Of a DNA stretch of 64,000 nt, positions 18,983-34,892 are shown piece after piece; position 1 is the first letter of the stretch; each line of letters starts with the position of its first letter. The DNA lies in contig MGIR01000001.1 of NCBI GenBank assembly GCA_001793855.1, positions 8,645 to 72,644 of the forward strand, read 5' to 3'. Both the position numbers and the translations under genes were made by a program. The notes under the pieces are model-generated. The model was not told the DNA's origin, searched no databases, and saw only the letters and a list, made by a program, of their open reading frames with translations. The stretch is from Candidatus Wolfebacteria bacterium RIFCSPLOWO2_01_FULL_45_19 (GTDB lineage: Bacteria; Patescibacteriota; Minisyncoccia; UBA6257; GWB1-45-9).

Positions 18983-20275
18983 TTATTTAAACTTCTCTAT
19001 TTCTTCCTCTTCTCCAAATATAGCCAATCCAGCCGGCGGACCGGCCTTGCGGCTTTCAACGCGTTTCAGATGCGGGGCGATAAGAACGAATTGTGTCGGC
19101 GGATGAAAAATAGTCGCGAGACATTCCGTGTTCAACACGAAAGGAATAGAGTGAAAATTCCAATACAGCCAATGCGAAGTGATCACGCGCCCCATAAATG
19201 TCTCCGGTGGAGTTTCTCTGCGCCGATAATTATAAAGAAAGCGCTGTTTACGATACATTATTCTTTTTTTCGCAAAAACATAGGGCCATGCGAACCGCTT
19301 AATCACAGTACTCGCGCTGTAATTCGGGCGAAACGAGTTAAGATTCAGCGCGGAATACTGGTTAAACGCGCCCATCACTCCGCGCCTGGCAAAGGCATCG
19401 AAAAAAATATCTTTTGGCGCGATATAAAGCAATCTTACTACGGCAGCAAAAGCCGACTTTGAAAGATTGTTTTCCACCTCCTCGAGCACAAACGTTTCGC
19501 CGGGAGTCCGCATCACTTTCGCGAAATCCATAGCTCCGGATGGAGCGCTTTTAGCCGCGCCTTTGGTTGCCGATTCTTTTAATTTCGCGATGGTGCCCCT
19601 GTATTTGTCCGCCCAATCCGGTCCGCTCGGAGTTATCAAAATCTGTATGCCGACAAATTCTCCTTTTTTAACTTTGCTTAAAAGTTCAATAAAAGTGGAC
19701 ATCGGGTCAAATTCTTTTTCTTCGGCTGGCGATTCAAATTTGAGATATGTTTTTATCGGATACGCGGATTCTTTTATCAATGCCAATTCCGTCCCCCAAA
19801 TACTCAACTCTCTTTCTTCCATTTCGCGCAAATTAACCGGGATCTGATTGGCGTAATCGTCAACCTCCGAAACTTCAACGTCGGGATAATAAGAAAAAAA
19901 CGCGGCTTCAACCAAACCACGGTATCGCGCGTAGGTTCTTACAAAAAAACGCACTTCGCCCCCTAAGCTGACCATTTCCAAAGAAAAAGGCCTCGTGACT
20001 TCGCCGTCTATGTATTCGTCTTTTAAATTGGCCGGAGAATTGCGGAGCGAATGAATAGCCGCCAAAACCTGCTCCATGGCCCTTACACCTTTTTTTATTT
20101 CACGCGGCATCCTTAATTCCAAAACCGCCCACTCGTTTTCGCTCTTAAACAATTCCTGCCTCCAAAAAAGCCATGCCGACCTAAAAATCGGCAAAAGTAC
20201 GATGGGAATAAAAAACCACCAAGTGGCTTTTATAAAATTCTGTGTTAGTTGTAGAATTAGAAAAAGCGGCTCCAC
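18983..20275 (-). CDS. hypothetical membrane-anchored protein
   Basis: N-terminal TM, 430 aa, no recognised motif. Confidence 0.4.
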   Translation of the reverse strand: MEPLFLILQLTQNFIKATWWFFIPIVLLPIFRSAWLFWRQELFKSENEWAVLELRMPREIKKGVRAMEQVLAAIHSLRNSPANLKDEYIDGEVTRPFSLEMVSLGGEVRFFVRTYARYRGLVEAAFFSYYPDVEVSEVDDYANQIPVNLREMEERELSIWGTELALIKESAYPIKTYLKFESPAEEKEFDPMSTFIELLSKVKKGEFVGIQILITPSGPDWADKYRGTIAKLKESATKGAAKSAPSGAMDFAKVMRTPGETFVLEEVENNLSKSAFAAVVRLLYIAPKDIFFDAFARRGVMGAFNQYSALNLNSFRPNYSASTVIKRFAWPYVFAKKRIMYRKQRFLYNYRRRETPPETFMGRVITSHWLYWNFHSIPFVLNTECLATIFHPPTQFVLIAPHLKRVESRKAGPPAGLAIFGEEEEIEKFK

Positions 20276-21386: not shown

Positions 21387-21725
21387 ATGACTATGGAAAA
21401 CCGCGAAAAACAAGACGAGACGGCCGATGAACGGCCTATGACAGAAACCGAGCTTACCATCAGCAATTGGTTCTGGATTGAGTTTATGAAACGTATGGGA
21501 AAATCCGAAGCCGATCTCCCGGCGCTTATAGAAAAATACGGCGGGCTCGAAGAACATATCTTTTTCAAAAATGAAGAACGCGCGGAACATCTCGACGACG
21601 CGGCGCTTGAATCGCTCGCGCGCGACGCGGAAGCCGTCTTATTGCGAGGAGAGCCGCTTGAATCGCACCCTAAATTGCTCAAGCTTTACAAGCATATTGA
21701 AGCAAAACTATTGCGGGGGCACTAG
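21387..21725 (+). CDS. hypothetical acidic protein
   Basis: ORF with a good upstream promoter. Its 3' end overlaps tRNA-Trp by ~12 nt. Confidence 0.35.
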   Translation: MTMENREKQDETADERPMTETELTISNWFWIEFMKRMGKSEADLPALIEKYGGLEEHIFFKNEERAEHLDDAALESLARDAEAVLLRGEPLESHPKLLKLYKHIEAKLLRGH

Positions 21726-21784
21726 GAATCGAACCCAGATTGGCGGTTTTGGAGACCGCCGTCCTGCCATTGAACGATGCCCCC
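21714..21784 (-). tRNA. tRNA-Trp (anticodon CCA)
   Basis: Manual cloverleaf: acceptor GGGGGCA/TGCCCCC, anticodon loop CTCCAAA, T-loop TTCGATT. Confidence 0.8.
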
Positions 21785-21794
21785 GGATTAAAAT

Positions 21795-21880
21795 CTCTAA
21801 ACCCTTATCTCTAAATCCTAAACGTTTGAAGTTTTGAATTTGAGATTTATTTAGAAATTAGATATTAAAAATTAGGATTT
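21795..21880. repeat. palindromic heptamer-repeat element (ctaaatcc / ggatttag family)
   Basis: The left arm tctaaacccttatctctaaatcctaaac is nearly identical to the arm of the element inside the 16S gene at 32221. Confidence 0.7.
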
Positions 21881-21891
21881 ACATAAAAAAG

Positions 21892-22062
21892 CTACTTTCT
21901 CGCTTCTTTATGCGCGGTATGTTTTCTGCACCAATCACAAAATTTGGAAAGTTCAATCTTTCTTTCAACTTTCTTTTTATTTTTGTGCGCATTATAATTC
22001 ACACGCTTGCATTCGGCGCAGCGAAGCCGCACAAATCTTTCCGATGTTTTTATTTTAGCCAT
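21892..22062 (-). CDS. rpmG: 50S ribosomal protein L33 (56 aa; not in ORF track)
   Basis: Minus-strand translation MAKIKTSERFVRLRCAECKRVNYNAHKNKKKVERKIELSKFCDWCRKHTAHKEARK. Confidence 0.8.
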   Translation of the reverse strand: MAKIKTSERFVRLRCAECKRVNYNAHKNKKKVERKIELSKFCDWCRKHTAHKEARK

Positions 22063-22069
22063 AATTTTG

Positions 22070-22141
22070 AGCCAGCGGGGAGAATTGAACTCCCGCTCTT
22101 TCCCTTACCAAGGGAGTGCTTTACCACTAAGCTACGCTGGC
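22070..22141 (-). tRNA. tRNA-Thr (anticodon GGT)
   Basis: Manual fold: acceptor GCCAGCG, D-loop AGTGGTA, anticodon loop TTGGTAA, T-loop TTCAATT. Confidence 0.7.
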
Positions 22142-22185
22142 GTCAGTATAACACATATTAACACGCTCAACAAGAAAGAAAAGTG

Positions 22186-22257
22186 AGCCACCTCTCGGAT
22201 TCGAACCGAGGACCCACGCTTTACAAAAGCGTTGCTCTGCCGCTGAGCTAAGGTGGC
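22186..22257 (-). tRNA. tRNA-Thr (anticodon TGT)
   Basis: Manual fold: acceptor GCCACCT, anticodon loop TTTGTAA, T-loop TTCGAAT. Confidence 0.75.
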
Positions 22258-22307
22258 GGATTGAATTTTGAAACGCCGCCGAATATAATAATACCACCGG
22301 TGAAAAA

Positions 22308-22394
22308 GCGCAGGTAGTCCCGTAGGGCGCGGGGGCAGACTGTAAATCTGTTGGCCATTGGCCCCGGTGAGTTCGACTCTCACTCTGCGCACCA
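22308..22394 (+). tRNA. tRNA-Tyr (anticodon GTA), long variable arm, CCA encoded
   Basis: Anticodon arm GCAGACTGTAAATCTGT and T-arm GTGAGTTCGACTCTCAC. The D-arm is unusual. Confidence 0.55.
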
Positions 22395-22581: not shown

Positions 22582-23787
22582 TTAGTAGTAAGTGTAAGTG
22601 GTATAACTTGAATAAGCGCTCCAAGTGCACAACCCGGCGTTCAGAGGAGAGCTAGTATTAGTAGCTTTTCTGGAACCGCCTCCGTAGGGATAACAACTTC
22701 CATCAAACGGCCAGCCATTGGCGTCGGAAGTAGGAACCGTGCCATTTTGAGCGTATAAAGACACTCCAGGACTACTGCAAGCATAAGTAAGATTTGTGCA
22801 GGTCGCGTCACTCATATAACAGTTGAAGCCATTCGTAACTCCGTTCCACGAAACCATCCAAAAGCTAACCGTGTCGGCGCCGGACTGGCAACTACTGGGG
22901 GTCGGCGGGGTACAACTATATGACGCTCCCGGAGTAGCAGTTGATGCACCATTTGCACATTGTCCCAAGAAATTATAGCCTGTGCCAGTAGTGTAATTAT
23001 CCCAATATCTGTTGCAATCCTCATCAATGAGAGGCGTTGCCGAACCGGACCCTCCTACTGCCGAACAAGTCGCATTTTGCGAGAACGCCGCGACTGACGC
23101 GCTGTCCGAAATCCGTTGCAGTCTGATTTGCAGTCCGGTTGCATTCCAAGTCGTTGCGGTAAAGTTATCGCCATTCAATTGAGCGGCCGCGTTGGTCGTG
23201 TTGGCATCGCAATTGTAAGTGGCATAGCTTAAGTCAGTCCATACTGAACCGGTGTAATACTGCAACCGACAGCCGCCCACCCCTCCGTTGCCTGTGCCGG
23301 CAGTCCAGCTGACGGTGAAGTCCCTGCGCCTGACCGTCTGAGTTAAGACAAGCGAAGTCGGCGGAGAAGAGGCGCCCCAAACACAAGAAGTCGCGCCGTC
23401 GCTGGTTTTAACCCAGCCGGTTCCGTTGCAGGCGCAGGTCGTGTAACCTGCAGTCATAGCCAACGATTTGCTTGTTGAAGCGTCACAAGTAAAAGGACTG
23501 GAAGAGTTTATTGGAAATTTTAACGCTCCTGTCGCCTCAATAATCCCGTTAATCGTGAGCTTGCTTGCCGGAGAAACTGTGCCGATGCCGACATTGCCGG
23601 TTCCGGGGTCAAATACTAAACCAGCGGTGCTTGTCGCGTTGCCTACCCGAAACCCGCCGCTCACGTCAAAAGTGTACTCCGGCGTTATTCCGATGCCGAT
23701 GTTTCCGCTACTGAACTTAAGGTTTCCACCGCCGATGCCTGGGCTTAAACTGGCGGGGCCGGTGAATCCGAGCGCGACAAAAACCAA
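22582..23787 (-). CDS. Cys/Thr/Gly-rich secreted or surface protein
   Basis: N-terminal hydrophobic segment. GTGNVGIGT repeats and many Cys. Confidence 0.55.
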   Translation of the reverse strand: MVFVALGFTGPASLSPGIGGGNLKFSSGNIGIGITPEYTFDVSGGFRVGNATSTAGLVFDPGTGNVGIGTVSPASKLTINGIIEATGALKFPINSSSPFTCDASTSKSLAMTAGYTTCACNGTGWVKTSDGATSCVWGASSPPTSLVLTQTVRRRDFTVSWTAGTGNGGVGGCRLQYYTGSVWTDLSYATYNCDANTTNAAAQLNGDNFTATTWNATGLQIRLQRISDSASVAAFSQNATCSAVGGSGSATPLIDEDCNRYWDNYTTGTGYNFLGQCANGASTATPGASYSCTPPTPSSCQSGADTVSFWMVSWNGVTNGFNCYMSDATCTNLTYACSSPGVSLYAQNGTVPTSDANGWPFDGSCYPYGGGSRKATNTSSPLNAGLCTWSAYSSYTTYTYY

Positions 23788-23863
23788 GAAACCGGAAACT
23801 AAGATACTTATTGATATTAATAGATATTTATTGATATTCGTGAATCCAGATTAATTTGTTTGC

Positions 23864-24331
23864 TCACCAGACGCATGCCGTTATGCCGTCGCTGGTTTTA
23901 ACCCAGCCGGTCCCGTTGCAGGCGCAGGTCGTGTAACCTGAAGTCAATGACAATGAGCCGGCATTTGAAGCGTTACAGGTAAAAGGAGCCGATGCGTTAG
24001 CCACCAATTTGAATCCCCCCAAAGTGGATTCAATAATCCCGTTGATCATGAGCTTGCTTGCCGGAGAAACGGTGCCGATGCCGACATTGCCGGTTCCGGG
24101 GTCAAATACTAAACCAGCGGTGCTTGTCGCGTTGCCTACCCGAAATCCGCCGCTCACGTCAAAAGTATATAAAGGCGTTATTCCTAAGCCGGTGTTTCCG
24201 CCAGAAGTTACAAAAAACCCAGAGCCAGTTCCCGGAGAAACCGAAGGGCCTGTAAATCCCAACACAACCGATACAAAGATGCCGGCGGATACTATTATAC
24301 CTGCGGATATCAACAGATATTTATTGATCAT
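23864..24331 (-). CDS. truncated paralogue of the 22582-23787 gene (tandem partial duplication)
   Basis: About 95% nucleotide identity over ~450 bp with 23390-23790. It diverges after TSDG. Confidence 0.5.
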   Translation of the reverse strand: MINKYLLISAGIIVSAGIFVSVVLGFTGPSVSPGTGSGFFVTSGGNTGLGITPLYTFDVSGGFRVGNATSTAGLVFDPGTGNVGIGTVSPASKLMINGIIESTLGGFKLVANASAPFTCNASNAGSLSLTSGYTTCACNGTGWVKTSDGITACVW

Positions 24332-24409
24332 TGCTTATAATTTTTTCTTTGTCTAACATTTTTTTATTATAGCATATTCGACCTTGTTTGTTGGTGGATG
24401 TGGATAAGT

Positions 24410-25363
24410 TCAGGGGCTCCAGTTAATGATGATGTCGGTTACGGTTGGGCCGACGGTTCGTCCAGTATCTGTTTCTAAAATAACTTTGTAGCGCCAGTAA
24501 CGTTTGTCGGTGTGACAAGTAAGGTCAATTTTGGATTGAATATTCGGGCCACCCGGATTGTAAAAATCGCCAACGCTACAGTTGGGTCCTCCGGGTCCGA
24601 CAAACGCGCCGTCGCCGGTCAATTTATCTCCTCCCCAGCCGACGCCGGTATCGCAAGTCGGAGAATTTGTCGCGCCATTGGAACAATTCGCGGCGGCTAT
24701 CCGAAAAAAAACGTTCGTGCCGCTTGGTTGCGTTCCCTGCCACATAATGGTGTTTATGGCGGAGCCGCCCTCAACCTGCGAGTCAAAAATACTTGAAATT
24801 AAAGTTCCTTCCGCGGGGTAGTTTGTCCAGCTTGTTTTGACTTTGTAATTGGAAGTTCCGCAAGTGTTTGGAGGACCGGCGCAATTGAAACTGAACCAGC
24901 CGACATCATTATTCCACGCCCAACCGGAGAAAATTCCCGTGCTCGGGTCAACGGATACTTTATAATTAGATTCCAAACAATTGTCATTTAGGCAGTTGAA
25001 ACTAATCCAGCCGACGCCGTCGTTCCACGCGAAGCCGCCAAGCTCGTTGGTGCTTGTGTTGTTGGTTACCTTAAAATTGCTCTGACCGCATATGTCCCCT
25101 GCCGGCGTTGTTTGGCAATTCAAAATAATTTCTTCGACAGTTGAGCTTGCCCAGCCGCGAAGTTCTGTTTCGTCAACAAAAACGTTGTTAGTGCCGTAAA
25201 AGTCAATCCAACCGATGGAATCGTTCCAGGCCCATTGTGTATATTCGGGTGGATTGTCCGGAATGATATTTGTTACGGCGAAAACCACCAGCCATGACGC
25301 GGATATGGCAGTTATAAATATAATAAAAAATATAATTAGTTTTTTCATACTAATATCCTTCAA
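24410..25363 (-). CDS. secreted repeat protein (~40 aa GWAWNDxxGWIxFNC repeats)
   Basis: N-terminal TM or signal sequence, then four Trp/Cys-containing repeats. Confidence 0.55.
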   Translation of the reverse strand: MKDISMKKLIIFFIIFITAISASWLVVFAVTNIIPDNPPEYTQWAWNDSIGWIDFYGTNNVFVDETELRGWASSTVEEIILNCQTTPAGDICGQSNFKVTNNTSTNELGGFAWNDGVGWISFNCLNDNCLESNYKVSVDPSTGIFSGWAWNNDVGWFSFNCAGPPNTCGTSNYKVKTSWTNYPAEGTLISSIFDSQVEGGSAINTIMWQGTQPSGTNVFFRIAAANCSNGATNSPTCDTGVGWGGDKLTGDGAFVGPGGPNCSVGDFYNPGGPNIQSKIDLTCHTDKRYWRYKVILETDTGRTVGPTVTDIIINWSP

Positions 25364-26531
25364 TCCTTATTTGCCCCGACGTGGCGTAATCAATGTTTGT
25401 TGAAGTGTTAAAACTCGCGGTGGTAGTAGCGGTAATTGGATTGTCTGTCGGATCTGTATAGCCGCCGCTCCAGTCGGTCTGCGAAAACAGGCGGTTAGAA
25501 TGACGGGTAAAATATCTGAACTGGCTGAAAGAATCAGTCGCGGCTAAAATTTCCCAGCCGGAAGTTACGGTTATTTTCTGAGTGGACGGGTCGTCGGTTC
25601 CGCTCACGGCTATTGCTCCGTTCGCGTCTCTATTTACGTTCTCAACATAAAAAGAGCGCATATATCTGTCACTGTTATAAATCTGCCAAATTTCATCGGC
25701 GGATAGGGCGCGGTCGTAAATGCGGACGTCGTCCAGCAGACCGTCAAAATAACCAGCAGAAACACGCCCGATGTCCATCGCCGAAGCGCCAACGCCTGTC
25801 GTGTCGGTTATAGCGACGTGGCGCCAAACCGCTGTAATAGTCGCGGACGCGGAACTGCCGTCCACATACACGATGGAGGCGGGGAAGCCCGTTGCGACAA
25901 CGTTGCTGTTTGCGTCTATTTCAATTTGAGCCGTCCCGTTCATATCAATTATTTTTTTTGATACTATAACATCCGCCTTCATCCAAAACATCACCGTCTT
26001 AATGCCGGCTCCAACATTGCCCAAAACGACATAATCCTCCGTCCCGTCAAATTCCAAACATCTGCTCAATTTGCAGGCGGAAGTTGAGGTCGCGCCGCCG
26101 GTGACTGTGCCGTCGTTATTGTTGTTCGTAGCGTCAAAAGCCGTAGTCGTTCCTACTGCCTCGTCAAATTTCCAGTAACCAACCAAGCCGTTAATAATGT
26201 CATCGCTGATAAGCCCCTCTTCGCCTTGTATAATCGTGGACGTCGCTCCAAACTTAATAAAATATTTATTCGCGGAGCCCTTATCTAAATTGTAAATATC
26301 GTGCCAGTTTTTTTCGGACATTCCCGCAAGCGAAATAAAATATTCGGATGTCAGACCGGCCGCTGTCTGCATCTGTTTGCTCTGCACGTTGCCGCGTAAT
26401 ATTCCCACGATACTAACCACCACTCCGCCGACAATAATGGCGCCAACGGCAATGGCGACGATAATCTCAAGAAGGGACTGCCCTTTTTGAGCTTTTAGCT
26501 TATAGCTTTTAGCTTTTAGCTGATTTTTCAT
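25350..26531 (-). CDS. type IV pilin-like protein with C-terminal LamG/concanavalin-like domain
   Basis: Prepilin leader KGQSLLEIIVAIAV (Glu at +5). LamG_3-like signature FDGLLDDVRIYDRALSADEI. Confidence 0.65.
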   Translation of the reverse strand: MKNQLKAKSYKLKAQKGQSLLEIIVAIAVGAIIVGGVVVSIVGILRGNVQSKQMQTAAGLTSEYFISLAGMSEKNWHDIYNLDKGSANKYFIKFGATSTIIQGEEGLISDDIINGLVGYWKFDEAVGTTTAFDATNNNNDGTVTGGATSTSACKLSRCLEFDGTEDYVVLGNVGAGIKTVMFWMKADVIVSKKIIDMNGTAQIEIDANSNVVATGFPASIVYVDGSSASATITAVWRHVAITDTTGVGASAMDIGRVSAGYFDGLLDDVRIYDRALSADEIWQIYNSDRYMRSFYVENVNRDANGAIAVSGTDDPSTQKITVTSGWEILAATDSFSQFRYFTRHSNRLFSQTDWSGGYTDPTDNPITATTTASFNTSTNIDYATSGQIRIEGY

Positions 26532-26708
26532 TGCAGTTTTTTAATTATTGTTGTCAACATTTTTTGAGCTTCCGTGAGAAATGCTTCAGCTTTAGAAAAG
26601 TCAACGTCTTTGTAAAGCTCTTTGGCTATTAATATTTGCGTTTCAAGCTCCGCGAAAGATTCTACGTACATAAATAATTTCTAAAAGCTACGAGCTAACA
26701 GCTATAAG

Positions 26709-27167
26709 CTATCTCGTGATATTTCCATTTTCCAAAACGCTTACATTGATTATACCGTCTCCGACGGTGGTTAGCAAAGTAAATGTAGCCGTATTATCAG
26801 GGACGCCGCTTATTTTAAGAAAATTGATTATCGTTGAATTTCCCTGCGCCGGAGAGCTGAATTCAATATGCGACGGCAAAGTTACCGAACGATGCGTAGT
26901 TGAAGCGCCACCGATTGTCTCGGCGTAAAAAATATCGTACCTATCCCCGTCACCAGCCGGCGCGTTTACATATACTCCCCAAAAACTTGATTCCAGTTCG
27001 CTTATGGAATTTTGCTGGGCTTCGCGAAGAGTTTGAACAAGCTTGTCTGATTCAAATTCCAAAGTACGTTGAACCCGCAAGTTTTGAATCGTGAGCAAAC
27101 CTATACCGCCGACAATCACCGTTATGCCGAGCGAAATCAGAAGCTCAATTAAGGTAAAACCCTTCAT
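26709..27167 (-). CDS. type IV pilin/pseudopilin
   Basis: MKGFTLIELLISL class III signal. Confidence 0.75.
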   Translation of the reverse strand: MKGFTLIELLISLGITVIVGGIGLLTIQNLRVQRTLEFESDKLVQTLREAQQNSISELESSFWGVYVNAPAGDGDRYDIFYAETIGGASTTHRSVTLPSHIEFSSPAQGNSTIINFLKISGVPDNTATFTLLTTVGDGIINVSVLENGNITR

Positions 27168-28375
27168 ATACTACCAATAAGTTGATAGATCGGAACTATT
27201 ATTGAAAGCGCTATTGTTCCTATTATAACTCCGAGAACGAGAAGCATTGCCGGTTCAAGGAACGACACAAGTGTTTTTATTGAATTGTCTATTTCCGATT
27301 CGTAAAACTTTGAAAGCGTGTCCAGGATGTCTTCCAAATGCCCGGCTTTTTCCGAAATCGCGACAAGATTGACGACAACTTTCGGAAAAACCTGCTCCCG
27401 TCTGAACGCATCGCCGACGGTCATCCCCTTAACGAGGCCCTCGCGCGAAACGCGCATAAGCGCCTCTTTCAATTCCTCCCAACCGACGGCCCGCGAAGTA
27501 ATTTCAAGCGAATCGGTTATATGCAAACCGGCGCGCATAAGAGACGAGAACGTGGAAGTAAATCTCTGCAAAGACGTTTTGCGTAAAACTTCGCCGAGAT
27601 ACGGAACGCGAAACGCGAAACGCTGAAGGACGCGCCTCGCGTTTATGTTTTTTGAAAGCACGTACCAGCCGCCGAAGGCCGCGCTCGCAAGCAAAATAAG
27701 AACATAAATAATATTATTACTGATAAAAAGCCCGACACCGAACACCACTCTGGAGAAAAGCGGCGGCTCAAATCCTCCGGTCATAAAAACTTCGGCTATT
27801 TTCGGCAAAGCGAAAGTAACCAAAAGAAGAAGAATGATGAAAGACGCGGCGAGAAGCACAACGGGATAAATGAGCGCGGAACGGATACGGCCTCGCAGTT
27901 CCTGTTCTCGCTCCAAAGAAACCGACAGGTCCTCAAGAACTTTGTCCAGAGTTCCGGATTTCTCGCCGGCGCGAATAAGATTGACAAACGCGGACGAAAA
28001 AAATTTCGGATATTGCGCGAAAGTGGTGTAAAACGGATTTCCTTTTTCAAGATTTGAGCGTATCTGAAGCAGAAGGGCTTTGATGGTCGGTTTTTCAAAA
28101 TCGTTTATAAGAATGTCTATTGCTTTGAAAAGGTCAGTTCCGGCCCTAAGCATCAGCGCGAGATATTTCGTCAAAAACAACTGATCAAGCGTGGTAAACG
28201 TGGGACCAAAAAGGCGGGCGCGAACCCCACCGCCAAAACCTTTGGCGATTTTTATAGAAATAGGGCGCAGGCCTTGCGCGCCAAGCTTCGCGAGCAATTC
28301 GTCGGTGTTCCCGGCTTCCATGCTATCTTCAACTATTTTTCCTTCCGCGTTAGACGCGACGTAATGGAATAACAT
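27164..28375 (-). CDS. pilC: type IV pilus platform protein PilC / GspF family
   Basis: Two GspF-type repeats and polytopic membrane topology. Confidence 0.8.
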   Translation of the reverse strand: MLFHYVASNAEGKIVEDSMEAGNTDELLAKLGAQGLRPISIKIAKGFGGGVRARLFGPTFTTLDQLFLTKYLALMLRAGTDLFKAIDILINDFEKPTIKALLLQIRSNLEKGNPFYTTFAQYPKFFSSAFVNLIRAGEKSGTLDKVLEDLSVSLEREQELRGRIRSALIYPVVLLAASFIILLLLVTFALPKIAEVFMTGGFEPPLFSRVVFGVGLFISNNIIYVLILLASAAFGGWYVLSKNINARRVLQRFAFRVPYLGEVLRKTSLQRFTSTFSSLMRAGLHITDSLEITSRAVGWEELKEALMRVSREGLVKGMTVGDAFRREQVFPKVVVNLVAISEKAGHLEDILDTLSKFYESEIDNSIKTLVSFLEPAMLLVLGVIIGTIALSIIVPIYQLIGSI

Positions 28376-28379
28376 AATT

Positions 28380-30089
28380 CTACTCCCTAATTACCCGAAG
28401 CACTTCTTCAAGCGTAGTCATGCCTTTTTCCGCTTTACGGAGACCATCTTCAAACATTGAAATCATTCCTTCTTTCCTCGCCAAGTTCTTAAGCGCGCCA
28501 AGAGAAAAGTCGGACGACACTATTAATTTTCGCACGTTTTCGGTAACATTCAAAACTTCAAAAATACCCATTCTGCCGCGATAGCCGGTGTTATTACAAC
28601 TGCGGCAGCCCTTGGCTTTGAACACAAGCTTAGGCGGTTTGAATTCACGGCTTATTCCGAGTTCCTCCCATTGTTTTTTAACCGCTTCAACGACATCCGA
28701 CGATGGTTTTTGCGACTGGATGCAATACGTACAAACGCGGCGCAACAAGCGTTGAGCCAGCACGGCGTTTATCACTGCCGCGACAAGAAAGGCGGGAATT
28801 TTCATATCGGTAAGACGAGGCACCGCGGTTGAGGCGTCATTGGTATGCAAAGAAGAAAGAACGAGGTGGCCGGTCAGCGCGGAGTGCACGGATATTTCAG
28901 CGGTTTCTTCGTCGCGGATTTCTCCGACCATTATTACGTTCGGGTCCTGACGGAGAATGGCGCGAAGTCCGTTCGCAAAAGTGATTCCGGCCTGCGGATT
29001 AATCTGCGTCTGATTGACATACTGAATATCGTATTCTATCGGGTCTTCAATGGTAACGATGTTGACTTCCGGACGGTTTAAAATGTTGAGAATGGAATAA
29101 AGCGTCGTGGTTTTTCCGGAACCGGTCGGGCCGGTAACCAACACTATACCGTAGGTCTTCTGTGTATTTTCTTTAATGGTTTTAACTGTATCTTCTTCCA
29201 TTCCCAATTCTTCAAAAGAAAGCGGTCGCTGAGCCGCGGTCAAAAGACGCATTTCAATTTTTTCCCCGTAAAAAACCGGCATAATCGCGACTCGGACGTC
29301 AACAATTTCTTTTTCTATTTTGTAACGAAATCTTCCGTCTTGCGGACGGCTGTGCTCGTCAAGTTTCAAACCGCTCACGAGCTTTATTCGCGCCGCCATG
29401 GCGTCGCTTATTTCTTTCGGCAGTTTGAGAATTTCATGAAGAATGCCGTCAACGCGGTACCGAATTAAAATAATATCTTCCAGCGCTTCAATATGGATGT
29501 CGGAGGCGCGAAGAGAAAGGGCGTATTTAAGAATATTGTCAACCAGCGCGACAATCGGAACGTCTTTCGCGGCTTCTTCCACGCCCGCGGCGCGCGAACG
29601 AAACGCCTGTCGCACATTTTCTTCCATTATTTTCTGGAAATCTCCGGAGAGTTCTTTGCCGTAAAAAGCATACGCCTTGTTGAGGTCGTCGTCGCTCGCG
29701 AGAAACGGGCGGACTTTGGCGTTGAATCTCCGTTCTATGAGTTCAACTGTTTCAAGATTGCCCGGGTCCTCCATCGCCACATCAAGCGTCCCGTCGGTTT
29801 CGCGGCCGAAAATCACGACGCGCCTCTGGCGCGCAACGTTTTCCGGAAGCATTCTCACTAAATTGTCGTCAAGCTGAATCTCCACGAAATTGGCTTTCCG
29901 GACTCCAAGATATTCGGCTACAATCTCGGCGAGGTAAGTTTGAGTAATTATATTTTTCGAAAGAAGAACGTCGTTTGTTGAGGTGCCGAGGCGCTCGGCT
30001 TCTTCTCTGGCCTGCTCAAAGGCTTCTGCCGTAATAAGACCGGCGTCAGTAAGAATCTGCTTTAACTTATCCGAAGGAATTTGAAGCAT
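28380..30089 (-). CDS. pilB: type IV pilus assembly ATPase PilB / GspE family
   Basis: Walker A GPTGSGKTTT, a Cys4 cluster, and a GspE N-terminal domain. Confidence 0.85.
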   Translation of the reverse strand: MLQIPSDKLKQILTDAGLITAEAFEQAREEAERLGTSTNDVLLSKNIITQTYLAEIVAEYLGVRKANFVEIQLDDNLVRMLPENVARQRRVVIFGRETDGTLDVAMEDPGNLETVELIERRFNAKVRPFLASDDDLNKAYAFYGKELSGDFQKIMEENVRQAFRSRAAGVEEAAKDVPIVALVDNILKYALSLRASDIHIEALEDIILIRYRVDGILHEILKLPKEISDAMAARIKLVSGLKLDEHSRPQDGRFRYKIEKEIVDVRVAIMPVFYGEKIEMRLLTAAQRPLSFEELGMEEDTVKTIKENTQKTYGIVLVTGPTGSGKTTTLYSILNILNRPEVNIVTIEDPIEYDIQYVNQTQINPQAGITFANGLRAILRQDPNVIMVGEIRDEETAEISVHSALTGHLVLSSLHTNDASTAVPRLTDMKIPAFLVAAVINAVLAQRLLRRVCTYCIQSQKPSSDVVEAVKKQWEELGISREFKPPKLVFKAKGCRSCNNTGYRGRMGIFEVLNVTENVRKLIVSSDFSLGALKNLARKEGMISMFEDGLRKAEKGMTTLEEVLRVIRE

Positions 30090-30093
30090 AGTT

Positions 30094-30162
30094 GTAATTT
30101 TGAATTTCTAATTTCAGTCATTTAAAATTGGTTCGAAATTCAAAATTCAAAATTGAAAATTA
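30094..30162. repeat. aaaattc heptamer palindrome
   Basis: taattttgaatttctaatttc ... cgaaattcaaaattcaaaattgaaaatta. Confidence 0.6.
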
Positions 30163-30707
30163 AAACCGAGCCCACTGAATATTATAACAGAGATGGATAT
30201 TGGTAGCCAAAGCCAATATAACGGAATACGCTTTTGTTGTTTATGAATAATGAATAATGAAGTATGAATTATGAGATATATGGACAAGACAGCGGCGAGC
30301 GCATACATCCATCCCGGGTGTCCCGCGAGAAAAAGCGCCCCAGCGGCGATGTACGGCTCTTCCTTTTCAAAAAAGCGGTCTTGGAATTTGCGGTTTAAAA
30401 ATTTCGCGCCGAGCAAAACAAAAAGCGCCGCGAAAAACGCCAAAAACGGCTGGATTAGAAAATTCGTGAAACTGTACAGCGCGAAATAACTGAAGCCGCG
30501 ATACGGCGGAACGAGATAGCTTGCAGGAGGGCCGCCGCCATGCCAAGCAAGAAACTGTTCCCGCATCCAATATGCCTGGATTGCGAAAATTACAATGACA
30601 GACAACCAAAACAGCGTTCTAAAAATTCGCGACTTATGCTCAAAAAAGAAGCGCAGTAGAATCTGCGCTCCCAAAAAAACAACCGCGGCGACTAAGCCAA
30701 CGGTCAT
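30147..30707 (-). CDS. polytopic membrane protein (possibly prepilin-peptidase-like; unassigned)
   Basis: Five to six TM helices between the pilin and pilB. No clear A24 motifs. Confidence 0.35.
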   Translation of the reverse strand: MTVGLVAAVVFLGAQILLRFFFEHKSRIFRTLFWLSVIVIFAIQAYWMREQFLAWHGGGPPASYLVPPYRGFSYFALYSFTNFLIQPFLAFFAALFVLLGAKFLNRKFQDRFFEKEEPYIAAGALFLAGHPGWMYALAAVLSIYLIIHTSLFIIHKQQKRIPLYWLWLPISISVIIFSGLGFNFQF

Positions 30708-31279
30708 ATGGTCAACTTGTTGCCGACTTCGTAAATGGTGGCATTGTTTCCTCCGTCCGTGCCTTCTCTGTCGTCAGTTCCGCTGGACGCGTAGCGTTCG
30801 CTTTCAAGATTCGCGGTCAGTTCGTACTTCAAAGTATCATGGCCATAAGCATAAAAGTAGGTGGCGTCATTAACCGGGTCAAGCGGCAAACCCACCAACG
30901 GCGAGCCGCCGGGTATGGACCCGAAATTAACCCTCACCCATCCGGTGGCGTCAGTCGCGCGCGCAATTGCTACCGTGGTTGTGGCTGTGGCTGTTATTCC
31001 GGCTGAATATCTGGTCGAGCCACTGCAAGTCACAACTGCCTGATCGCCGCCGACAACACATGTAGTCGTGGCTAAACCGTTCTGAAAATCAGGGCTAGAC
31101 ACGGTTGCTAGATACAATCCAAGAGCCGAGTGAACTGTTCCCAGATCGGAAACGCGCTGTGAATCGCGCGCCTGCCTTAAAAGTTCCGCCGGGTTAATAA
31201 CCAAAACCGCGACCGTAGATAAAATTGCCAGAAGGCCGATAACGATAAGGAGCTCTATTAATGTAAAACCTTTTTTCAT
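30704..31279 (-). CDS. type IV pilin (probable major pilin)
   Basis: MKKGFTLIELLIVIGLLAIL. Confidence 0.8.
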   Translation of the reverse strand: MKKGFTLIELLIVIGLLAILSTVAVLVINPAELLRQARDSQRVSDLGTVHSALGLYLATVSSPDFQNGLATTTCVVGGDQAVVTCSGSTRYSAGITATATTTVAIARATDATGWVRVNFGSIPGGSPLVGLPLDPVNDATYFYAYGHDTLKYELTANLESERYASSGTDDREGTDGGNNATIYEVGNKLTI

Positions 31280-31340
31280 AAAATTAATTATATCATACTC
31301 CCCACCCCACCCCGCAAGACGCGAAACTGTGGATAACTTT

Positions 31341-31712
31341 TTACTTCATATAATCTTTGATTCTGACAACAAGCTCGTCTATGGAGGTTTTCGCTTTGAC
31401 GAAATACTCAATCGCGCCCAATTCCTTGCCGGTCTGAATGTCGGATTCTTGTCCAAGGTTTGAAATTATAACAATCTGGCTTTGGCTTAACTGCGGGTCA
31501 CTGCGAATCGCTTCAAGAACTTCAAATCCGGATTTTTTGGGCAAAATTATATCAAGCAGGACGAGGTCGGGTTTTTGGTCGCGCAAAAACTTCAGCGCTT
31601 CTTCGCCGTCAGGAGCGTGAATCACGGTGAAGTTTTCTTTTTGCAAACGCGTCTTCAAAAGAGACGACAAGAACACGTCGTCTTCCACAAGCAAGATGGT
31701 TTTCCCATTCAT
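31341..31712 (-). CDS. single-domain response regulator (CheY-like receiver)
   Basis: LLVEDD ... DLVLLDIILP ... receiver motifs, with no output domain. Confidence 0.8.
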   Translation of the reverse strand: MNGKTILLVEDDVFLSSLLKTRLQKENFTVIHAPDGEEALKFLRDQKPDLVLLDIILPKKSGFEVLEAIRSDPQLSQSQIVIISNLGQESDIQTGKELGAIEYFVKAKTSIDELVVRIKDYMK

Positions 31713-31994
31713 GATTTATATTATAGCAAAACTTTTCTCGTTGTCCCAAGAGTCGAGACTTGATGGCTCATCGACTAATACCATCCCGCCGAAGCGGGGT
31801 CGACACTAGTTTTCATTATTGAAAACTAAGTTTAATTAATCCACGCACAGCTTCCGCTACGCGTGCCTTGTTACGACTTCGTCCGTGTCACCGAACTTAC
31901 CCTAACCCCGCAAAACGGAGTTTTAGGTATTCCCGGCTTCCTTGACGTGACGGGCGGTGAGTACAGGACTCGAGAACGTATTCACCGCGGCATA

Positions 31995-32029
<35 letters not shown>

Positions 32030-32193
32030 AGGGCGAGTTGCAGCCCTCAATCCGAACTTGGGCCGGTTTTAAGGGATTAGCTCCACCTTACGGTTTGGCA
32101 ACCCTTTGTACCGGTCATTGTAGCACGAGTGTAGCCCAGGGCATCAGAGGGCCATGCGGATTTGACGTCGTCCCCTCCTTCCTCCCAGCACTT

Positions 32194-32359
32194 TGTTCGC
32201 AAACGAACAAAGCAATTTCTAAACTCTAATATCTAAATCCTAAACAAATTTTAAAAATCAAATCTCAAATTCGAAACGTTTGGAACATTTGAATTTGGAA
32301 TTTTGAGATTGTTTAGAGATTAGGATTTCGAATTTAGGATTTCTTTGCGCTTGTGCGCA
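32194..32359. repeat. ~165 nt palindromic heptamer-repeat element forming an expansion in the 16S h40 loop
   Basis: Closed by CAGCACTT/AAGTGCTG. The arms tctaaactctaatatctaaatcctaaac / gtttagagattaggatttcgaatttaggattt match the element at 21795. Confidence 0.7.
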
Positions 32360-32725
32360 AAGTGCTGGGCAGTTTTGCCTGACACGTATAACAGACAATA
32401 GGGGTTGCGCTCGTTTCCCCACTTAAGGGAACGTCTCACGATACGAGCTGACGACAACCATGCAGCACCTGTCCTGACGTCCTTGAGAGACAACACGCCT
32501 TTCAGCATGTCTTCGTCAAGATTTCTAGCCCTGGTAAGGTTCCTCGTTTAGTATCGAATTAAACCTCATGCTCCACCGCTTGTGCGAGTCCCCGTCTATT
32601 CCTTTGAGTTTTAAGCTTGCGCTCGTACTTCCCAGGCGGCCTGCTTAACGCGTTAGCTTCGCCACTCCGAGGGTCGATACTCGAAACAGCCAGCAGGCAT
32701 CGTTTAGGGCGTGGACTACAAGGGT

Positions 32726-33856
32726 TGAATTTGTTACTTCGCGACAATAGTATTATTGTCACGCGAGCCGAACATTTCTGTCGGCTTCTCTATGTTGCCA
32801 TAGAGTCCGGACTATATCTTTATCTGAAAGCCGTCCATCGAGCCAGTTTCTTCTCGTATTCGGATAAAATAACCGAACGAGGAAAGCGGCTCAAACTTAC
32901 AACCTCAGATATCCAGCGTTCTTGAAATTGAGAATCTTTATAGAGAAGTATTGCTTTGCGCAACATGTCCGGCGTTGGTATATGCGGCAGAATGATGCGA
33001 AGAAACTTTTTTAATTCCTCCTGCGATCTGATCCATATCCGCCAATATTGCCGCCGCTCTCCTTTATAGATACGGGATATGGGAGATACGATATTTTTTA
33101 TATCCCATACTACTTTAAGGTAGCGAGATAGTATTTTGACAGATTCTTTGTCAAAGCCATCGGTACAAAATACTCCCTTTCTTCCTCCGTAACTAATAAG
33201 TGAGCCATCATCACACCACCATACGGCGAGCGATAACGGGGTCATTCGGTTCAGCCAAGTGCGTCTAATGCGCAATCGGTTATTTTTATACGTTAAGCGA
33301 TGCAATTCAGTTAACGCTGGCAGATTTCTGCTTATAAACCGCCACTTGCTGTTTACGCTGAAACCGTCGGCCCTTTGGACACTAATACTTTTCTCTCGCG
33401 CTATCTCTTGAAGCATATCTGCTTTCCATAAGAGATAATCTTTTTGTGTTTCCGAATGACGAATTTGTAAATTCGCATTGGCACATTTTTTTTGAATCTT
33501 CAACGAACCGTCTCCTAGGATTGTTCCTAAAATAACGGCTCGCGCTTGATCCGACAAAGGCACATACTTTTTATCATTTTGCATATTATTATTTTATACG
33601 CTCATGACATAATGCGCCAACTATCTTAACTCAATTTCATAGTCTCTACGGGGTCAAACAAAATGAAATTTGAACTTTCAATTTTGCATTCTGTCGACTT
33701 CCCTCGGGATTGTCCGTCCGACAGGACGGAGTTCCCCGATACAGCTAGATGCTCACCCCGACGTCGCCGTCGAGGGGGACACCTTTGACAACCCCGATTT
33801 ACATCGGGGCTCTTTGTTTCTACGGGCAAAAGGAAAACCCTCCACAAAGATTTCGT
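32726..33856 (-). mobile_element. group I intron in 16S (near E. coli position ~790) carrying a homing endonuclease ORF; boundaries approximate
   Basis: It interrupts GGATTAGATA | CCCTTGTAGTCC. P7 elements GTAGAGACTATG (R) and AAGATATAGTCC (S) are present. Confidence 0.75.
32820..33584 (-). CDS. LAGLIDADG homing endonuclease (double-motif)
   Basis: ILGDGSL and WCDDGSL motifs. Confidence 0.8.
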   Translation of the reverse strand: MQNDKKYVPLSDQARAVILGTILGDGSLKIQKKCANANLQIRHSETQKDYLLWKADMLQEIAREKSISVQRADGFSVNSKWRFISRNLPALTELHRLTYKNNRLRIRRTWLNRMTPLSLAVWWCDDGSLISYGGRKGVFCTDGFDKESVKILSRYLKVVWDIKNIVSPISRIYKGERRQYWRIWIRSQEELKKFLRIILPHIPTPDMLRKAILLYKDSQFQERWISEVVSLSRFPRSVILSEYEKKLARWTAFR

Positions 33857-34457
33857 ATCTAATCCTTTTTGCTCCCCACGCTTTCGTGTCTCAGAGTCAG
33901 GAACGTCCCAGCCAGCTGCCTTCGCCTTTGGTGTTCCGCACGATATCAACGGATTTCACCCCTACACCGTGCGTTCCACTGGCCTCTGACGTCCTCTAGT
34001 TCGGCCGTATCTCTTGCAGCCTCAGGGTTGAGCCCCGAGATTTAACAAAAGACGCACCGAACATCCTACACACGCTTTACGCCCAATAAATCCGGATAAC
34101 GCTTGAGGTCTACGTTTTACCGCTGGTGCTGGCACGTAGTTACCCACCTCTTTCCACAGGGTACCGTCAACCTCGCGCGTAGCGCGAGAACCGAAAAACA
34201 CATGAACGTAAAAACGTAAGAACAAGTTGTTCTTTGGTTTATAGGTTCTTTAGTTTTTTAGTTCTTGTGCTACGCACAAGGCTTCTTCCCCTGCTATCGC
34301 GGTTTACGACCCGAAGGCCTTCTTCCCGCACGCGGCGTCGCTCGATCAGGCTTTCGCCCATTGTCGAATATTCTCGACTGCTGCCTCCCGTAGGAGTATG
34401 CACCGTGTCTCAGTTGCATCGTCGGGGAACAGGCTCTCACCCCCCCTACCGGTCATA

Positions 34458-34492
<35 letters not shown>

Positions 34493-34817
34493 CAGACCTA
34501 AGCCACTCCTGAAGCGATTTGCATCTTTACTCCGACACCCTTGCGGGGTCGGAGATTATTTGGAATTACCTCGTCTTTCGACGAGCTATGCCAAACTTCA
34601 GGGTATGTACTAAGGCGTTACTGACTCGTTCGCCACTGCCTCGCGCCTTGCGCGAGAACAAAAAAACGAAAGAACAAAAGAACTTAAGAACAAAAAGTTC
34701 TTGGGTTCATAAGTTCATGGGTTTTTTAGTCCTTGTGCAAAACACAAGGCCGTTCGACTTGCATGCCTTATCCACGCCGCCAGCGTTCATCCTGGACCAG
34801 GATCAAATCCTCAATAA

Positions 34818-34892
34818 GAGCTTTCAGCTTTTAGCTTATAGCTTATAGAAGGTAACCCCCCTAACAGCTAACAGCTATCAGCTAACAGCTCG
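34818..34892. repeat. agctNNN heptamer palindrome immediately upstream of the 16S 5' end
   Basis: agcttttagcttatagcttatag ... ctaacagctaacagctatcagctaacagct. Confidence 0.6.

What the first reader, a model, noticed from the sequence alone, without database searches (positions are those of the whole stretch)
22582..31712. Type IV pilus locus with a LamG-lectin pilin fusion, repeat/Cys-rich surface proteins and a receiver-only regulator
Contiguous minus-strand genes in order:
- receiver-only response regulator
- major pilin
- membrane protein
- PilB ATPase
- PilC
- pseudopilin
- a pilin whose C-terminus carries a LamG/concanavalin-like domain (FDGLLDDVRIYDRALSADEI)
- a 4x ~40-aa Trp/Cys repeat protein
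- two Cys/Thr-rich surface proteins

In CPR episymbionts such loci are thought to mediate host attachment. A lectin-tipped minor pilin would be a plausible adhesin.
Basis: partly seen in the sequence, partly recalled or inferred. Interest (0 to 1): 0.55.

Follow-up and report, generated by a model that had tools for sequence, protein, structure and literature searches.

The report
Type IV pilus operon, lectin-bearing pilin
This is a real type IV pilus operon of a Wolfebacteria (CPR/Patescibacteria) genome in which a minor pilin carries a lectin-like LamG domain, a design already catalogued in such bacteria, so it is a sound but largely expected find with a few uncharacterised accessory genes.

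Summary
They are a receiver-only regulator, a pilin, a roughly 5-TM membrane protein, PilB, PilC, a short pilin, a LamG pilin, a Trp/Cys-repeat protein and two Cys/Thr-rich paralogues. The window is Candidatus Wolfebacteria RIFCSPLOWO2_01_FULL_45_19.

Corrections:
- LamG (aa ~108-288 of 393) is an insertion inside a conserved ~225-aa minor pilin, not a C-terminal graft.
- The repeat protein has three clear W-x-W-N-[DN]-x-x-G-W-[IF]-x-F units plus one degenerate unit, followed by a galactose-binding-like jelly roll.

The gene order 16S rRNA, regulator, pilin, membrane protein, PilB, PilC, two minor pilins recurs in 16 Patescibacteria genomes. The two minor pilins act as scaffolds for swapped modules: LamG, NHL propeller, PF07588 or the repeat protein's domains. 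In some genomes those domains are fused to the pilin, which argues that the separate protein here is pilus-associated.

[quoted passage not shown] Function is inferred only.

Pilin+PF13385 architectures (PMC8179133), S. sanguinis PilC (PMC9934059) and lectin-like Saccharibacteria minor pilins (PMC11623550) are published. I therefore class this as a new member of a known kind. The membrane protein and the repeat protein belong to uncharacterised families.

The parts
31341..31712 (-). Single-domain (receiver-only) response regulator, first gene of the operon
   Evidence: PF00072 E 4e-22 over aa 6-118 of 123. Phospho-acceptor pocket D11/D12/D54/S84/K106 is intact. An orthologue heads the operon in L031 and in 15 of the loci annotated.
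31720..31749 (-). Promoter-like site (TTGGGA-18-TATAAT with TG extension) ending 8 nt before the regulator ATG
   Evidence: Consensus scan, 10/12 matches. A pattern match only.
30704..31279 (-). Probable major pilin (191 aa, leader MKKG|FTLIELLIV)
   Evidence: N_methyl 6e-7 and TIGR02532 1e-7. 40% G+A+S+T. TGATATAAT lies 8 nt before the ATG. One or two copies sit at this position in related loci. The 'major' role is inferred.
30147..30707 (-). Conserved ~190-aa polytopic membrane protein of unknown family, always between pilin and pilB
   Evidence: No Pfam, NCBIfam or PHROG hit. 329 representatives at E<=1e-3, mostly 180-200 aa among the 150 listed. A family profile finds nothing in the PDB or Pfam. 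Invariant E117 and W167; motifs RFFExEEPY and LYWLWLP. Only one Asp (read directly from the sequence).
28380..30089 (-). PilB-type extension ATPase with N-terminal MshEN domain
   Evidence: T2SSE 1.8e-124, MshEN 2.5e-13. TIGR02538 523 bits and GspE 516 bits, both below the equivalog cut-offs.
27164..28375 (-). PilC/GspF platform protein
   Evidence: T2SSF 8e-53, two stretches; GspF 1.7e-85.
26709..27167 (-). Minor pilin 1 (152 aa, leader MKG|FTLIELLISLG), bare here
   Evidence: N_methyl 1e-4; weak ComGE/ComGD/GspH hits. Orthologues carry a C-terminal LamG (L001, L003, L013, L018, L019) or an NHL propeller (L008).
25350..26531 (-). Minor pilin 2 with an inserted LamG domain. Pilin N-module aa 1-107 (26211-26531), LamG aa ~108-288 (25668-26210), pilin C-module and conserved tail aa 289-393 (25353-25667)
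24410..25363 (-). Sec-type secreted Trp/Cys-repeat protein. W-repeat domain aa ~40-180 (24824-25246) and galactose-binding-like jelly roll aa ~185-317 (24413-24811). Overlaps or abuts the LamG pilin gene
23864..24331 (-). 155-aa Gly/Ser/Thr/Cys-rich secreted protein with a tail-fibre-like stalk motif (GNVGIGTVSPASKL)
   Evidence: No family hit. 75% identical to the N-terminus of the next gene. The hydrophobic segment precedes the G|FTGP site, so it is not a class III signal (read from the sequence).
22582..23835 (-). Longer paralogue (401 aa from the TTG; about 417 aa if it starts at ATC 23835) with a Cys-rich C-terminal extension of about 260 aa
   Evidence: Only 15 homologues in 5.8 billion proteins, some named tail fiber domain-containing. 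Faint fn3. Start-codon problem. Homologues P0243 and P0244 are not next to pilus genes.
31829..34818 (-). 16S rRNA gene (with a LAGLIDADG-bearing insertion) immediately upstream and co-directional: conserved context
   Evidence: Rfam RF00177, 1261 bits. LAGLIDADG_2 1.6e-35. Same arrangement in 15 further genomes.

Best explanation
This is a compact type IV pilus operon of the monoderm type, with no secretin. PilB and PilC polymerise the 191-aa major pilin.

I propose that the two minor pilins prime assembly and stay at the filament tip. Minor pilin 2 would display a LamG (concanavalin-A-like) module, looped out of its globular head, that binds a glycan on a host or partner cell surface. The Trp/Cys-repeat plus jelly-roll protein, which is secreted and translationally coupled to minor pilin 2, would be a second, non-pilin tip module. 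It would be held by the conserved C-terminal tail of minor pilin 2. The CheY-like regulator would gate pilus activity through phosphorylation.

Shown here:
- gene identities;
- class III leaders;
- the LamG fold and its inserted position;
- conserved synteny;
- module swapping and pilin-domain fusions in other genomes.

Inferred:
- tip location;
- glycan binding;
- docking of the repeat protein on the tail;
- the regulator's target;
- host attachment.
For: - HMM identities.
- G-1/E+5 leaders are nearly invariant in the LamG pilin family (G17, Q18, L20, E22).
- Insertion: short 223-245-aa orthologues align with aa 1-107 and 289-393 at 41-46% identity. The family HMM splits into positions 4-105 and 317-420, which are adjacent in those short proteins.
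- The operon order is conserved in 16 genomes.
- The minor pilins carry alternative modules: LamG, NHL propeller or PF07588.
- Rosetta-stone fusions join minor pilin 2 to the repeat protein's domains in L008, L024, L025 and P0084.
- The LamG pilin gene and the repeat-protein gene overlap by 14 nt.
- Precedents: S. sanguinis PilA-PilC tip complex with a glycan-binding ConA-like module (PMC9934059); TM7x PilX1/PilX2 lectin-like minor pilins and a host-binding defect of the pilX2 mutant (PMC11623550).
Against: - There is no experimental datum for this organism.
- No prepilin peptidase, PilT or PilM/N/O lies in the 64-kb window, so completeness and retraction are untested.
- LamG domains also bind proteins or lipids, and no sugar-binding residues could be assigned.
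- Five related loci have the conserved pilin tail but no adjacent repeat-protein gene. In L006 that gene lies among housekeeping genes. The tail may therefore serve pilin-pilin contacts instead.
- The PilB scores do not separate T4P from T2SS or Com types.
Confidence: 0.7

Rival explanations
1. This is a DNA-uptake (competence, Com-like) pilus. The filament captures extracellular DNA for nucleotide scavenging or transformation, and the bulky modules merely cap the pilus.
For: The short minor pilin's best NCBIfam hits are ComGE and ComGD, both weak (E 1e-6 and 6.5e-6) and below cut-off. ComGA and ComGB models also hit PilB and PilC. CPR pili have been proposed to take up DNA (PMC5220378). A DUF8128/VirD4-like ATPase gene follows the operon in several related loci.
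Against: PilB and PilC score far higher on the PilB/GspE and GspF/PilC models than on ComGA and ComGB. No ComEA, ComEC or DprA lies in the window. LamG, NHL and CBM-like modules are typical ligand or glycan binders, not DNA receptors. The two roles are not mutually exclusive.
Confidence: 0.15
2. This is a type II secretion-like pseudopilus. A short piston of pseudopilins exports the downstream Cys-rich and repeat proteins rather than forming an adhesive fibre.
For: The GspE, GspF, GspG and GspH models hit PilB, PilC and the pilins. The three downstream genes encode Sec-type secreted proteins.
Against: No secretin or GspC/L/M is present, and Patescibacteria are regarded as lacking an outer membrane (PMC5220378 reports no LPS genes). 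The repeat protein's domains occur fused to a pilin in other genomes, which fits a displayed module rather than an exported cargo. The Cys-rich genes are not conserved with the operon.
Confidence: 0.05
3. The three downstream genes (the repeat protein and the two Cys/Thr-rich proteins) are unrelated surface proteins that merely sit next to the pilus operon.
For: Homologues of the 401-aa protein are few (15), and the two examined are not next to pilus genes. One repeat-protein homologue lies among housekeeping genes (L006). The gaps before the two Cys-rich genes are 78 and 76 nt.
Against: For the repeat protein: it follows minor pilin 2 in six genomes (window, L005, L007, L009, L015, L031). Its gene overlaps the pilin gene. 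Its domains are fused to the pilin in L008, L024, L025 and P0084. For the Cys-rich pair this rival remains likely (I put it at about 0.6 for those two genes alone).
Confidence: 0.1

Closest known systems
Streptococcus sanguinis minor pilin PilC (PDB 7OA7/7OA8) with its partner PilA
   Different: In PilC the Ig-like and lectin modules are grafted after a short pilin moiety. Here LamG is inserted inside the pilin module and followed by about 105 conserved residues. No sequence-level hit to PilC appeared among the 60 best of 75 PDB matches in the profile search. The ligand is unknown.
Nanosynbacter lyticus TM7x PilX1 / PilX2 (Saccharibacteria)
   Same: These are Patescibacteria minor pilins with a lectin-like beta-jelly-roll (PilX1) or a beta-propeller (PilX2). 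They are proposed tip adhesins. The pilX2 mutant binds host cells less well, and binding is inhibited by sugars (PMC11623550).
   Different: They come from a different class of Patescibacteria. Their loci include PilT, PilM/N/O and PilD. [quoted passage not shown] No homology was tested here. The PilX1 domain was not recognised by CD-Search, whereas this one is a clear PF13385.
Catalogued modular pilins IPR012902 + PF13385 (Raynaud et al. 2021)
   Same: The domain combination is the same. [quoted passage not shown]
   Different: That survey is a domain-architecture list only. It does not describe the insertion topology, the operon context or the partner proteins.
GspK (T2SS minor pseudopilin)
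   Same: [quoted passage not shown]
   Different: [quoted passage not shown] No sequence relation was found.
PilY1/PilC of diderm T4aP (non-pilin tip adhesin)
   Same: By analogy with the Trp/Cys-repeat protein: it is Sec-secreted, is not a pilin, is encoded with minor pilins, and has a modular 'carrier plus effector' design (PMC8179133).
   Different: The defining C-terminal PilY1 beta-propeller is absent. The carrier here is a ~130-aa galactose-binding-like jelly roll.

Membership tests
Type IV pilus (T4aP-like) machinery | PilB-family extension ATPase | tested here: met
   T2SSE 1.8e-124. TIGR02538 7.8e-157, but 523 bits against a 675 cut-off, so it is a family member and not an equivalog.
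Type IV pilus (T4aP-like) machinery | PilC/GspF polytopic platform protein | tested here: met
   T2SSF x2, 8e-53.
Type IV pilus (T4aP-like) machinery | Pilins with a class III signal peptide (G-1, hydrophobic alpha1N, E+5) | tested here: met
   Three genes pass the N_methyl gathering score (29.1, 22.2 and 24.1 bits against 21.2). The leaders can be read directly.
Type IV pilus (T4aP-like) machinery | Prepilin peptidase (Peptidase_A24, PilD) | tested here: inconclusive
   No candidate in the pilus locus: the 186-aa membrane protein is not A24 (no hit; one Asp only). No obvious candidate was seen on reading the window's ORF translations. The rest of the genome could not be searched.
Type IV pilus (T4aP-like) machinery | Retraction ATPase PilT and alignment proteins PilM/N/O | tested here: inconclusive
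   Absent from the locus. None was recognised on reading the window's ORF translations. The genome-wide status is unknown.
Modular lectin pilin (S. sanguinis PilC type) | Pilin module: N-terminal alpha1 helix packed on a beta-sheet | tested here: met
   AF2 shows helix 2-74 and strands 90-108 plus 289-342, with pLDDT mostly above 85.
Modular lectin pilin (S. sanguinis PilC type) | Concanavalin-A-like/LamG module | tested here: met
Modular lectin pilin (S. sanguinis PilC type) | Module grafted after the pilin moiety via a short linker | tested here: not met
   LamG is inserted at aa ~108-288. The flanks align contiguously with short pilins.
Modular lectin pilin (S. sanguinis PilC type) | Demonstrated glycan binding and tip location | not testable with these tools
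   Needs glycan arrays or ITC, and cryo-ET or immunogold.
PilY1/PilC non-pilin tip adhesin (for the Trp/Cys-repeat protein) | C-terminal PilY1 beta-propeller (IPR008707/PF05567) | tested here: not met
CheY-like single-domain response regulators (PilG/PilH type) | Receiver domain alone with an intact acidic pocket, Ser/Thr and Lys | tested here: met
   PF00072 covers aa 6-118 of 123. D11, D12, D54, S84 and K106 are present.
CheY-like single-domain response regulators (PilG/PilH type) | Linked Chp-type chemosensory kinase | tested here: inconclusive
   No histidine kinase was recognised on reading the window's ORF translations. The genome was not searched.
Peptidase A24 (for the 186-aa membrane protein) | Two catalytic Asp in conserved motifs and an A24 profile match | tested here: not met
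   A single Asp in the protein. No A24 hit among the 25 listed families most often matched by the 64 family members, and none for the profile against the PDB.

The most novel reading that the evidence does not exclude
Paceibacteria-type Patescibacteria would have their own streamlined T4P variant. It is defined by a conserved ~190-aa polytopic membrane protein, which could be a new assembly factor replacing PilM/N/O or another missing part. It also has a new class of non-pilin tip module: a Trp-repeat domain plus a galactose-binding-like 'carrier' domain. That module would dock on the conserved QTDWSGG...GxIxIxG[FY] tail of a scaffold minor pilin. The scaffold's internal insertion site and C-terminal tail would together form a plug-in platform for host-range-determining binding modules. 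The whole operon is genomically tied to the 16S rRNA gene.
Probability: 0.3. Interest if true: 0.6.

Novelty: new member of a known kind. Interest (0 to 1): 0.36.

Why it matters
How ultrasmall CPR bacteria recognise and hold on to partner cells is largely unknown outside a few cultivated Saccharibacteria. This locus provides a defined candidate set in Wolfebacteria/Paceibacteria:
- a LamG-bearing minor pilin;
- a conserved, Pfam-less secreted repeat protein;
- a conserved unknown membrane protein.

The cross-genome comparison shows that the binding modules are swapped on two constant pilin scaffolds. That pattern is what one would expect of host-specificity determinants. The LamG insert and the repeat protein can be expressed and screened for ligands without cultivating the organism. 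The general idea of modular lectin pilins, including in CPR, is already published, so the gain is incremental.

Tried and rejected
- **Membrane protein as a divergent prepilin peptidase.** Rejected. It has one Asp only. There is no A24 or any other family hit for the protein. None of the 25 listed families most often matched by 64 homologues is A24, and the family profile finds nothing significant in the PDB.
- **The two Cys/Thr-rich proteins as pilins.** Rejected. The hydrophobic stretch precedes the G|FTGP site and there is no E+5. They look Sec-type.
- **Diversity-generating retroelement link.** A bAvd/23S_rRNA_IVP-like ORF sits beside the LamG pilin in L031. No reverse transcriptase was seen there, and the window has no such ORF. 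I treat it as an intervening selfish ORF.
- **The 510-aa ORF at 16963-18495 as PilM.** The idea came from a 507-aa weak PilM_2 gene in L007. The window ORF gives only a sub-threshold GlxA barrel hit.
- **Technical failures.** The search for related loci with the 64-sequence membrane-protein alignment failed because it was too diverse; it was rerun with 3 sequences. The afdb50 fold library was unavailable. Model coordinates are not exposed, so contacts between strands could not be checked. A literature search for a 16S-pilus linkage found nothing.
Full report
**Source and setting**

The LamG pilin is 100% identical to a hypothetical protein of Candidatus Wolfebacteria bacterium RIFCSPLOWO2_01_FULL_45_19. 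The window carries housekeeping genes typical of a small CPR genome. It also has a 16S rRNA gene at 31829-34818 on the minus strand, enlarged to 2990 nt by an insertion that encodes a LAGLIDADG endonuclease. The finding lies immediately downstream of that rRNA gene, on the same strand.

**Check of the observation**

All ten ORFs exist as described. Pfam and NCBIfam identify them as follows.
- Receiver-only response regulator: PF00072, E 4e-22, 123 aa. D11, D12, D54, S84 and K106 are intact.
- Pilin: N_methyl 6e-7, leader MKKG|FTLIE.
- PilB: T2SSE 2e-124, plus MshEN.
- PilC: T2SSF twice.
- Second, short pilin: N_methyl 1e-4.
- 393-aa protein: N_methyl (aa 13-37, leader ...KAQKG|QSLLE) and Laminin_G_3.

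The quoted LamG motif is at aa 262-281. The 186-aa membrane protein, the Trp/Cys protein and the two Cys/Thr-rich proteins have no family hit in Pfam, NCBIfam or PHROGs.

Gene spacing suggests an operon:
- overlaps of 4, 4 and 14 nt;
- gaps of 4, 57 and 61 nt;
- one 177-nt gap before the LamG pilin;
- 76-78-nt gaps before the last two genes.

**The LamG pilin**

It belongs to a family with many full-length homologues of about 390-450 aa at 29-48% identity. The hits that carry a source name are almost all Patescibacteria. G17, Q18, L20 and E22 are nearly invariant, so the unusual Gln+1 leader is a family trait and not an error.

A profile of the family matches solved LamG-type domains:
- S-layer protein 4qvs, E 1e-28;
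- AbnA domain 4, E 8e-20;
- clostridial toxin Hc-N domains, neurexin, pentraxins and sialidase lectin domains.

The domain is not C-terminal. Orthologous pilins of 223-245 aa in other Patescibacteria align with aa 1-107 and with aa 289-393 at 41-46% identity, with nothing in between. The family HMM hits those short proteins as two adjacent pieces, positions 4-105 and 317-420. LamG is therefore looped out of the pilin head, as the alpha-domain is in GspK.

The last 45 residues (QTDWSGG ... G-x-I-x-I-x-G-[FY]) are highly conserved. They are nevertheless predicted without confidence in the monomer. That combination suggests a partner-dependent segment.

**Locus comparison**

I collected the following:
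- neighbourhoods of five homologues found by protein searches;
- 21 loci from a genome scan using the membrane protein as anchor;
- the closest relative of the LamG pilin.

All except L029-L031, which were fetched later and read from their precomputed gene tables, were annotated with the same local HMMs.

The order regulator, pilin (one or two copies), membrane protein, PilB, PilC, minor pilin 1, minor pilin 2 is conserved. These loci come from MAGs labelled Paceibacterota, Colwell-, Brenner- and Jorgensenbacteria and others. A 16S rRNA gene lies directly upstream and co-directional in 16 of about 20 genomes that have enough upstream sequence.

The variable part is what the minor pilins carry.
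- **Window and L031:** bare minor pilin 1, LamG-inserted minor pilin 2, then the Trp/Cys-repeat protein.
- **L001, L003, L013, L018, L019:** both minor pilins carry LamG (C-terminal on pilin 1, inserted in pilin 2), and there is no repeat protein.
- **L005, L007, L009, L015:** both pilins are bare and the repeat protein follows.
- **L008:** minor pilin 1 carries an NHL propeller.
- **P0084:** a PF07588 (DUF1554) domain occupies the LamG insertion site.

**The Trp/Cys-repeat protein**

It has 562 homologues, typically 280-340 aa and up to about 520 aa. The hits that carry a source name are Patescibacteria. None has a Pfam domain apart from PDDEXK_3 (PF13366) on two longer hits.

It has a Sec-type signal (family consensus A-x-A-A-T-N-I). 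There are three clear W-x-W-N-[DN]-x-x-G-W-[IF]-x-F hairpin repeats and one degenerate repeat. The model is confident, with pLDDT 90.6.

Structure comparisons gave the following.
- Foldseek finds nothing at E<=1e-3, and the profile finds nothing in the PDB.

Its domains are fused to the C-terminus of minor pilin 2 in other genomes.
- **L025 and P0084:** pilin plus jelly roll.
- **L008:** pilin plus jelly roll, with the W-repeats inserted before the last strand.
- **L024:** pilin plus jelly roll, with a ~370-aa repeat insert at the same point.

These fusions, the conserved adjacency and the gene overlap argue that the separate protein in this window works with minor pilin 2. It may dock on the conserved pilin tail, but that step is inference.

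**The other genes**

The membrane protein defines a family of about 190 aa. There are 329 representatives at E<=1e-3. E117 and W167 are invariant, and the motifs RFFExEEPY and LYWLWLP are conserved. It is always located between the pilin and pilB. It is not a prepilin peptidase and matches nothing known. Its role is unexplained.

The two Cys/Thr-rich genes are a tandem duplication, 75% identical over 155 aa including the signal anchor. The longer copy has lost its ATG. Homologues are very rare. They share a tail-fibre-like stalk motif and are not linked to pilus genes elsewhere. I regard them as lineage-specific surface proteins whose link to the pilus is unproven.

**Mechanism**

The best-supported model is a monoderm-type T4P. 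The two minor pilins would nucleate assembly and remain at the tip, presenting LamG and, through the repeat protein, further carbohydrate-binding-like modules to a partner cell surface. The CheY-like regulator would control activity.

This mirrors two published systems:
- the PilA-PilC(-PilB) tip complex of S. sanguinis, where the ConA-like module binds host glycans (PMC9934059);
- the lectin-like PilX1/PilX2 minor pilins of Saccharibacteria TM7x, where pilX2 deletion lowers host binding and sugars inhibit binding (PMC11623550).

The rivals are not excluded. They are a DNA-uptake pilus, a secretion pseudopilus, and mere adjacency of the downstream genes. The module content and the fusions fit them less well. 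No PilD, PilT or PilM/N/O is in the window. Whether they exist elsewhere in the genome could not be tested.

**Novelty**

Type IV pili are well known in CPR (PMC5220378). [quoted passage not shown] Lectin-like minor pilins are described in Saccharibacteria. The finding is therefore a new member of a known kind.

I did not find the following described in the held library:
- the insertion topology;
- the two-scaffold module-swapping pattern;
- the Pfam-less repeat and membrane families;
- the 16S linkage (for the last).

These points raise interest modestly.

Noticed in passing
window 31829-34818 with 31341-31712; also L001, L003, L005, L007, L009, L011-L013, L015-L019, L022, L023: The 16S rRNA gene lies directly upstream of, and co-directional with, the pilus operon in 16 independent Patescibacteria genomes. 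No 23S gene follows. A promoter-like site just before the regulator suggests separate transcription, but read-through from the rRNA promoter is possible. No mention was found in the literature search.
   Followed up: partly
window 32820-33584 (inside the 16S gene): A LAGLIDADG_2 homing-endonuclease ORF (E 1.6e-35) sits in a ~1.4-kb insertion of the 16S gene. The 16S spans in L016, L017 and L023 are also enlarged, to 2.4-3.9 kb.
   Followed up: partly
window 30147-30707: A conserved ~190-aa polytopic membrane protein family of unknown function is always found between the pilin and pilB. E117 and W167 are invariant, with motifs RFFExEEPY and LYWLWLP. There are 329 representatives and no known relatives.
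   Followed up: yes
window 26532-26708 (177-nt gap); L031 5260-5607: In the closest relative this gap holds a 115-aa four-helix-bundle ORF (PF05635 23S_rRNA_IVP / PF22296 bAvd), and a PDDEXK_3 ORF follows the repeat-protein gene. In many metagenome gene calls the four-helix-bundle ORF is in frame with the minor pilin, ahead of its leader (P0083, P0105, P0117, P0118). It looks like a recurrent insertion spot for small selfish ORFs.
   Followed up: partly
window 23788-23850: The 401-aa gene has no canonical start for its signal anchor: AAT replaces the ATG of its paralogue, and the in-frame sequence NINKYLLIS... is conserved. Either it uses ATC at 23835, or it is a decaying copy that starts at a TTG inside the anchor.
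   Followed up: partly
window 30647-30672 (minus strand): A 10-bp GC-rich stem-loop followed by a T-run lies 35 nt after the major pilin stop, inside the start of the membrane-protein ORF. It could be an attenuator that raises the pilin-to-machinery transcript ratio. It is only a pattern match.
   Followed up: no
window 18983-20275; L001 13484-15838, L003 11721-14072, L019, L023: A ~790-aa DUF8128 plus VirD4/TrwB-like ATPase gene follows the pilus operon in several related loci. The window's 430-aa ORF resembles only the N-terminal half (phmmer E 1e-6 to 1e-10), has no Pfam hit and is separated from the operon by tRNA genes and a sigma-70 region 4/HARE-HTH gene.
   Followed up: partly
L024 9652-11754: A 701-aa pilin fusion carries six or seven ~55-aa repeats (DSTYMYVVGYD...NWRIEKRLLTTGALD), propeller-like, with no Pfam hit. 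They are inserted before the last strand of the jelly-roll domain.
   Followed up: no
window 49081-50595 (+): This is another secreted, Cys-containing 504-aa protein with a coiled-coil-like middle. It has only a marginal DUF6483 hit and is unrelated to the locus.
   Followed up: no
window 21713-22394: A cluster of four tRNA genes (Trp, Thr-GGT and Thr-TGT on the minus strand, Tyr on the plus strand) bounds the locus on its downstream side.
   Followed up: no
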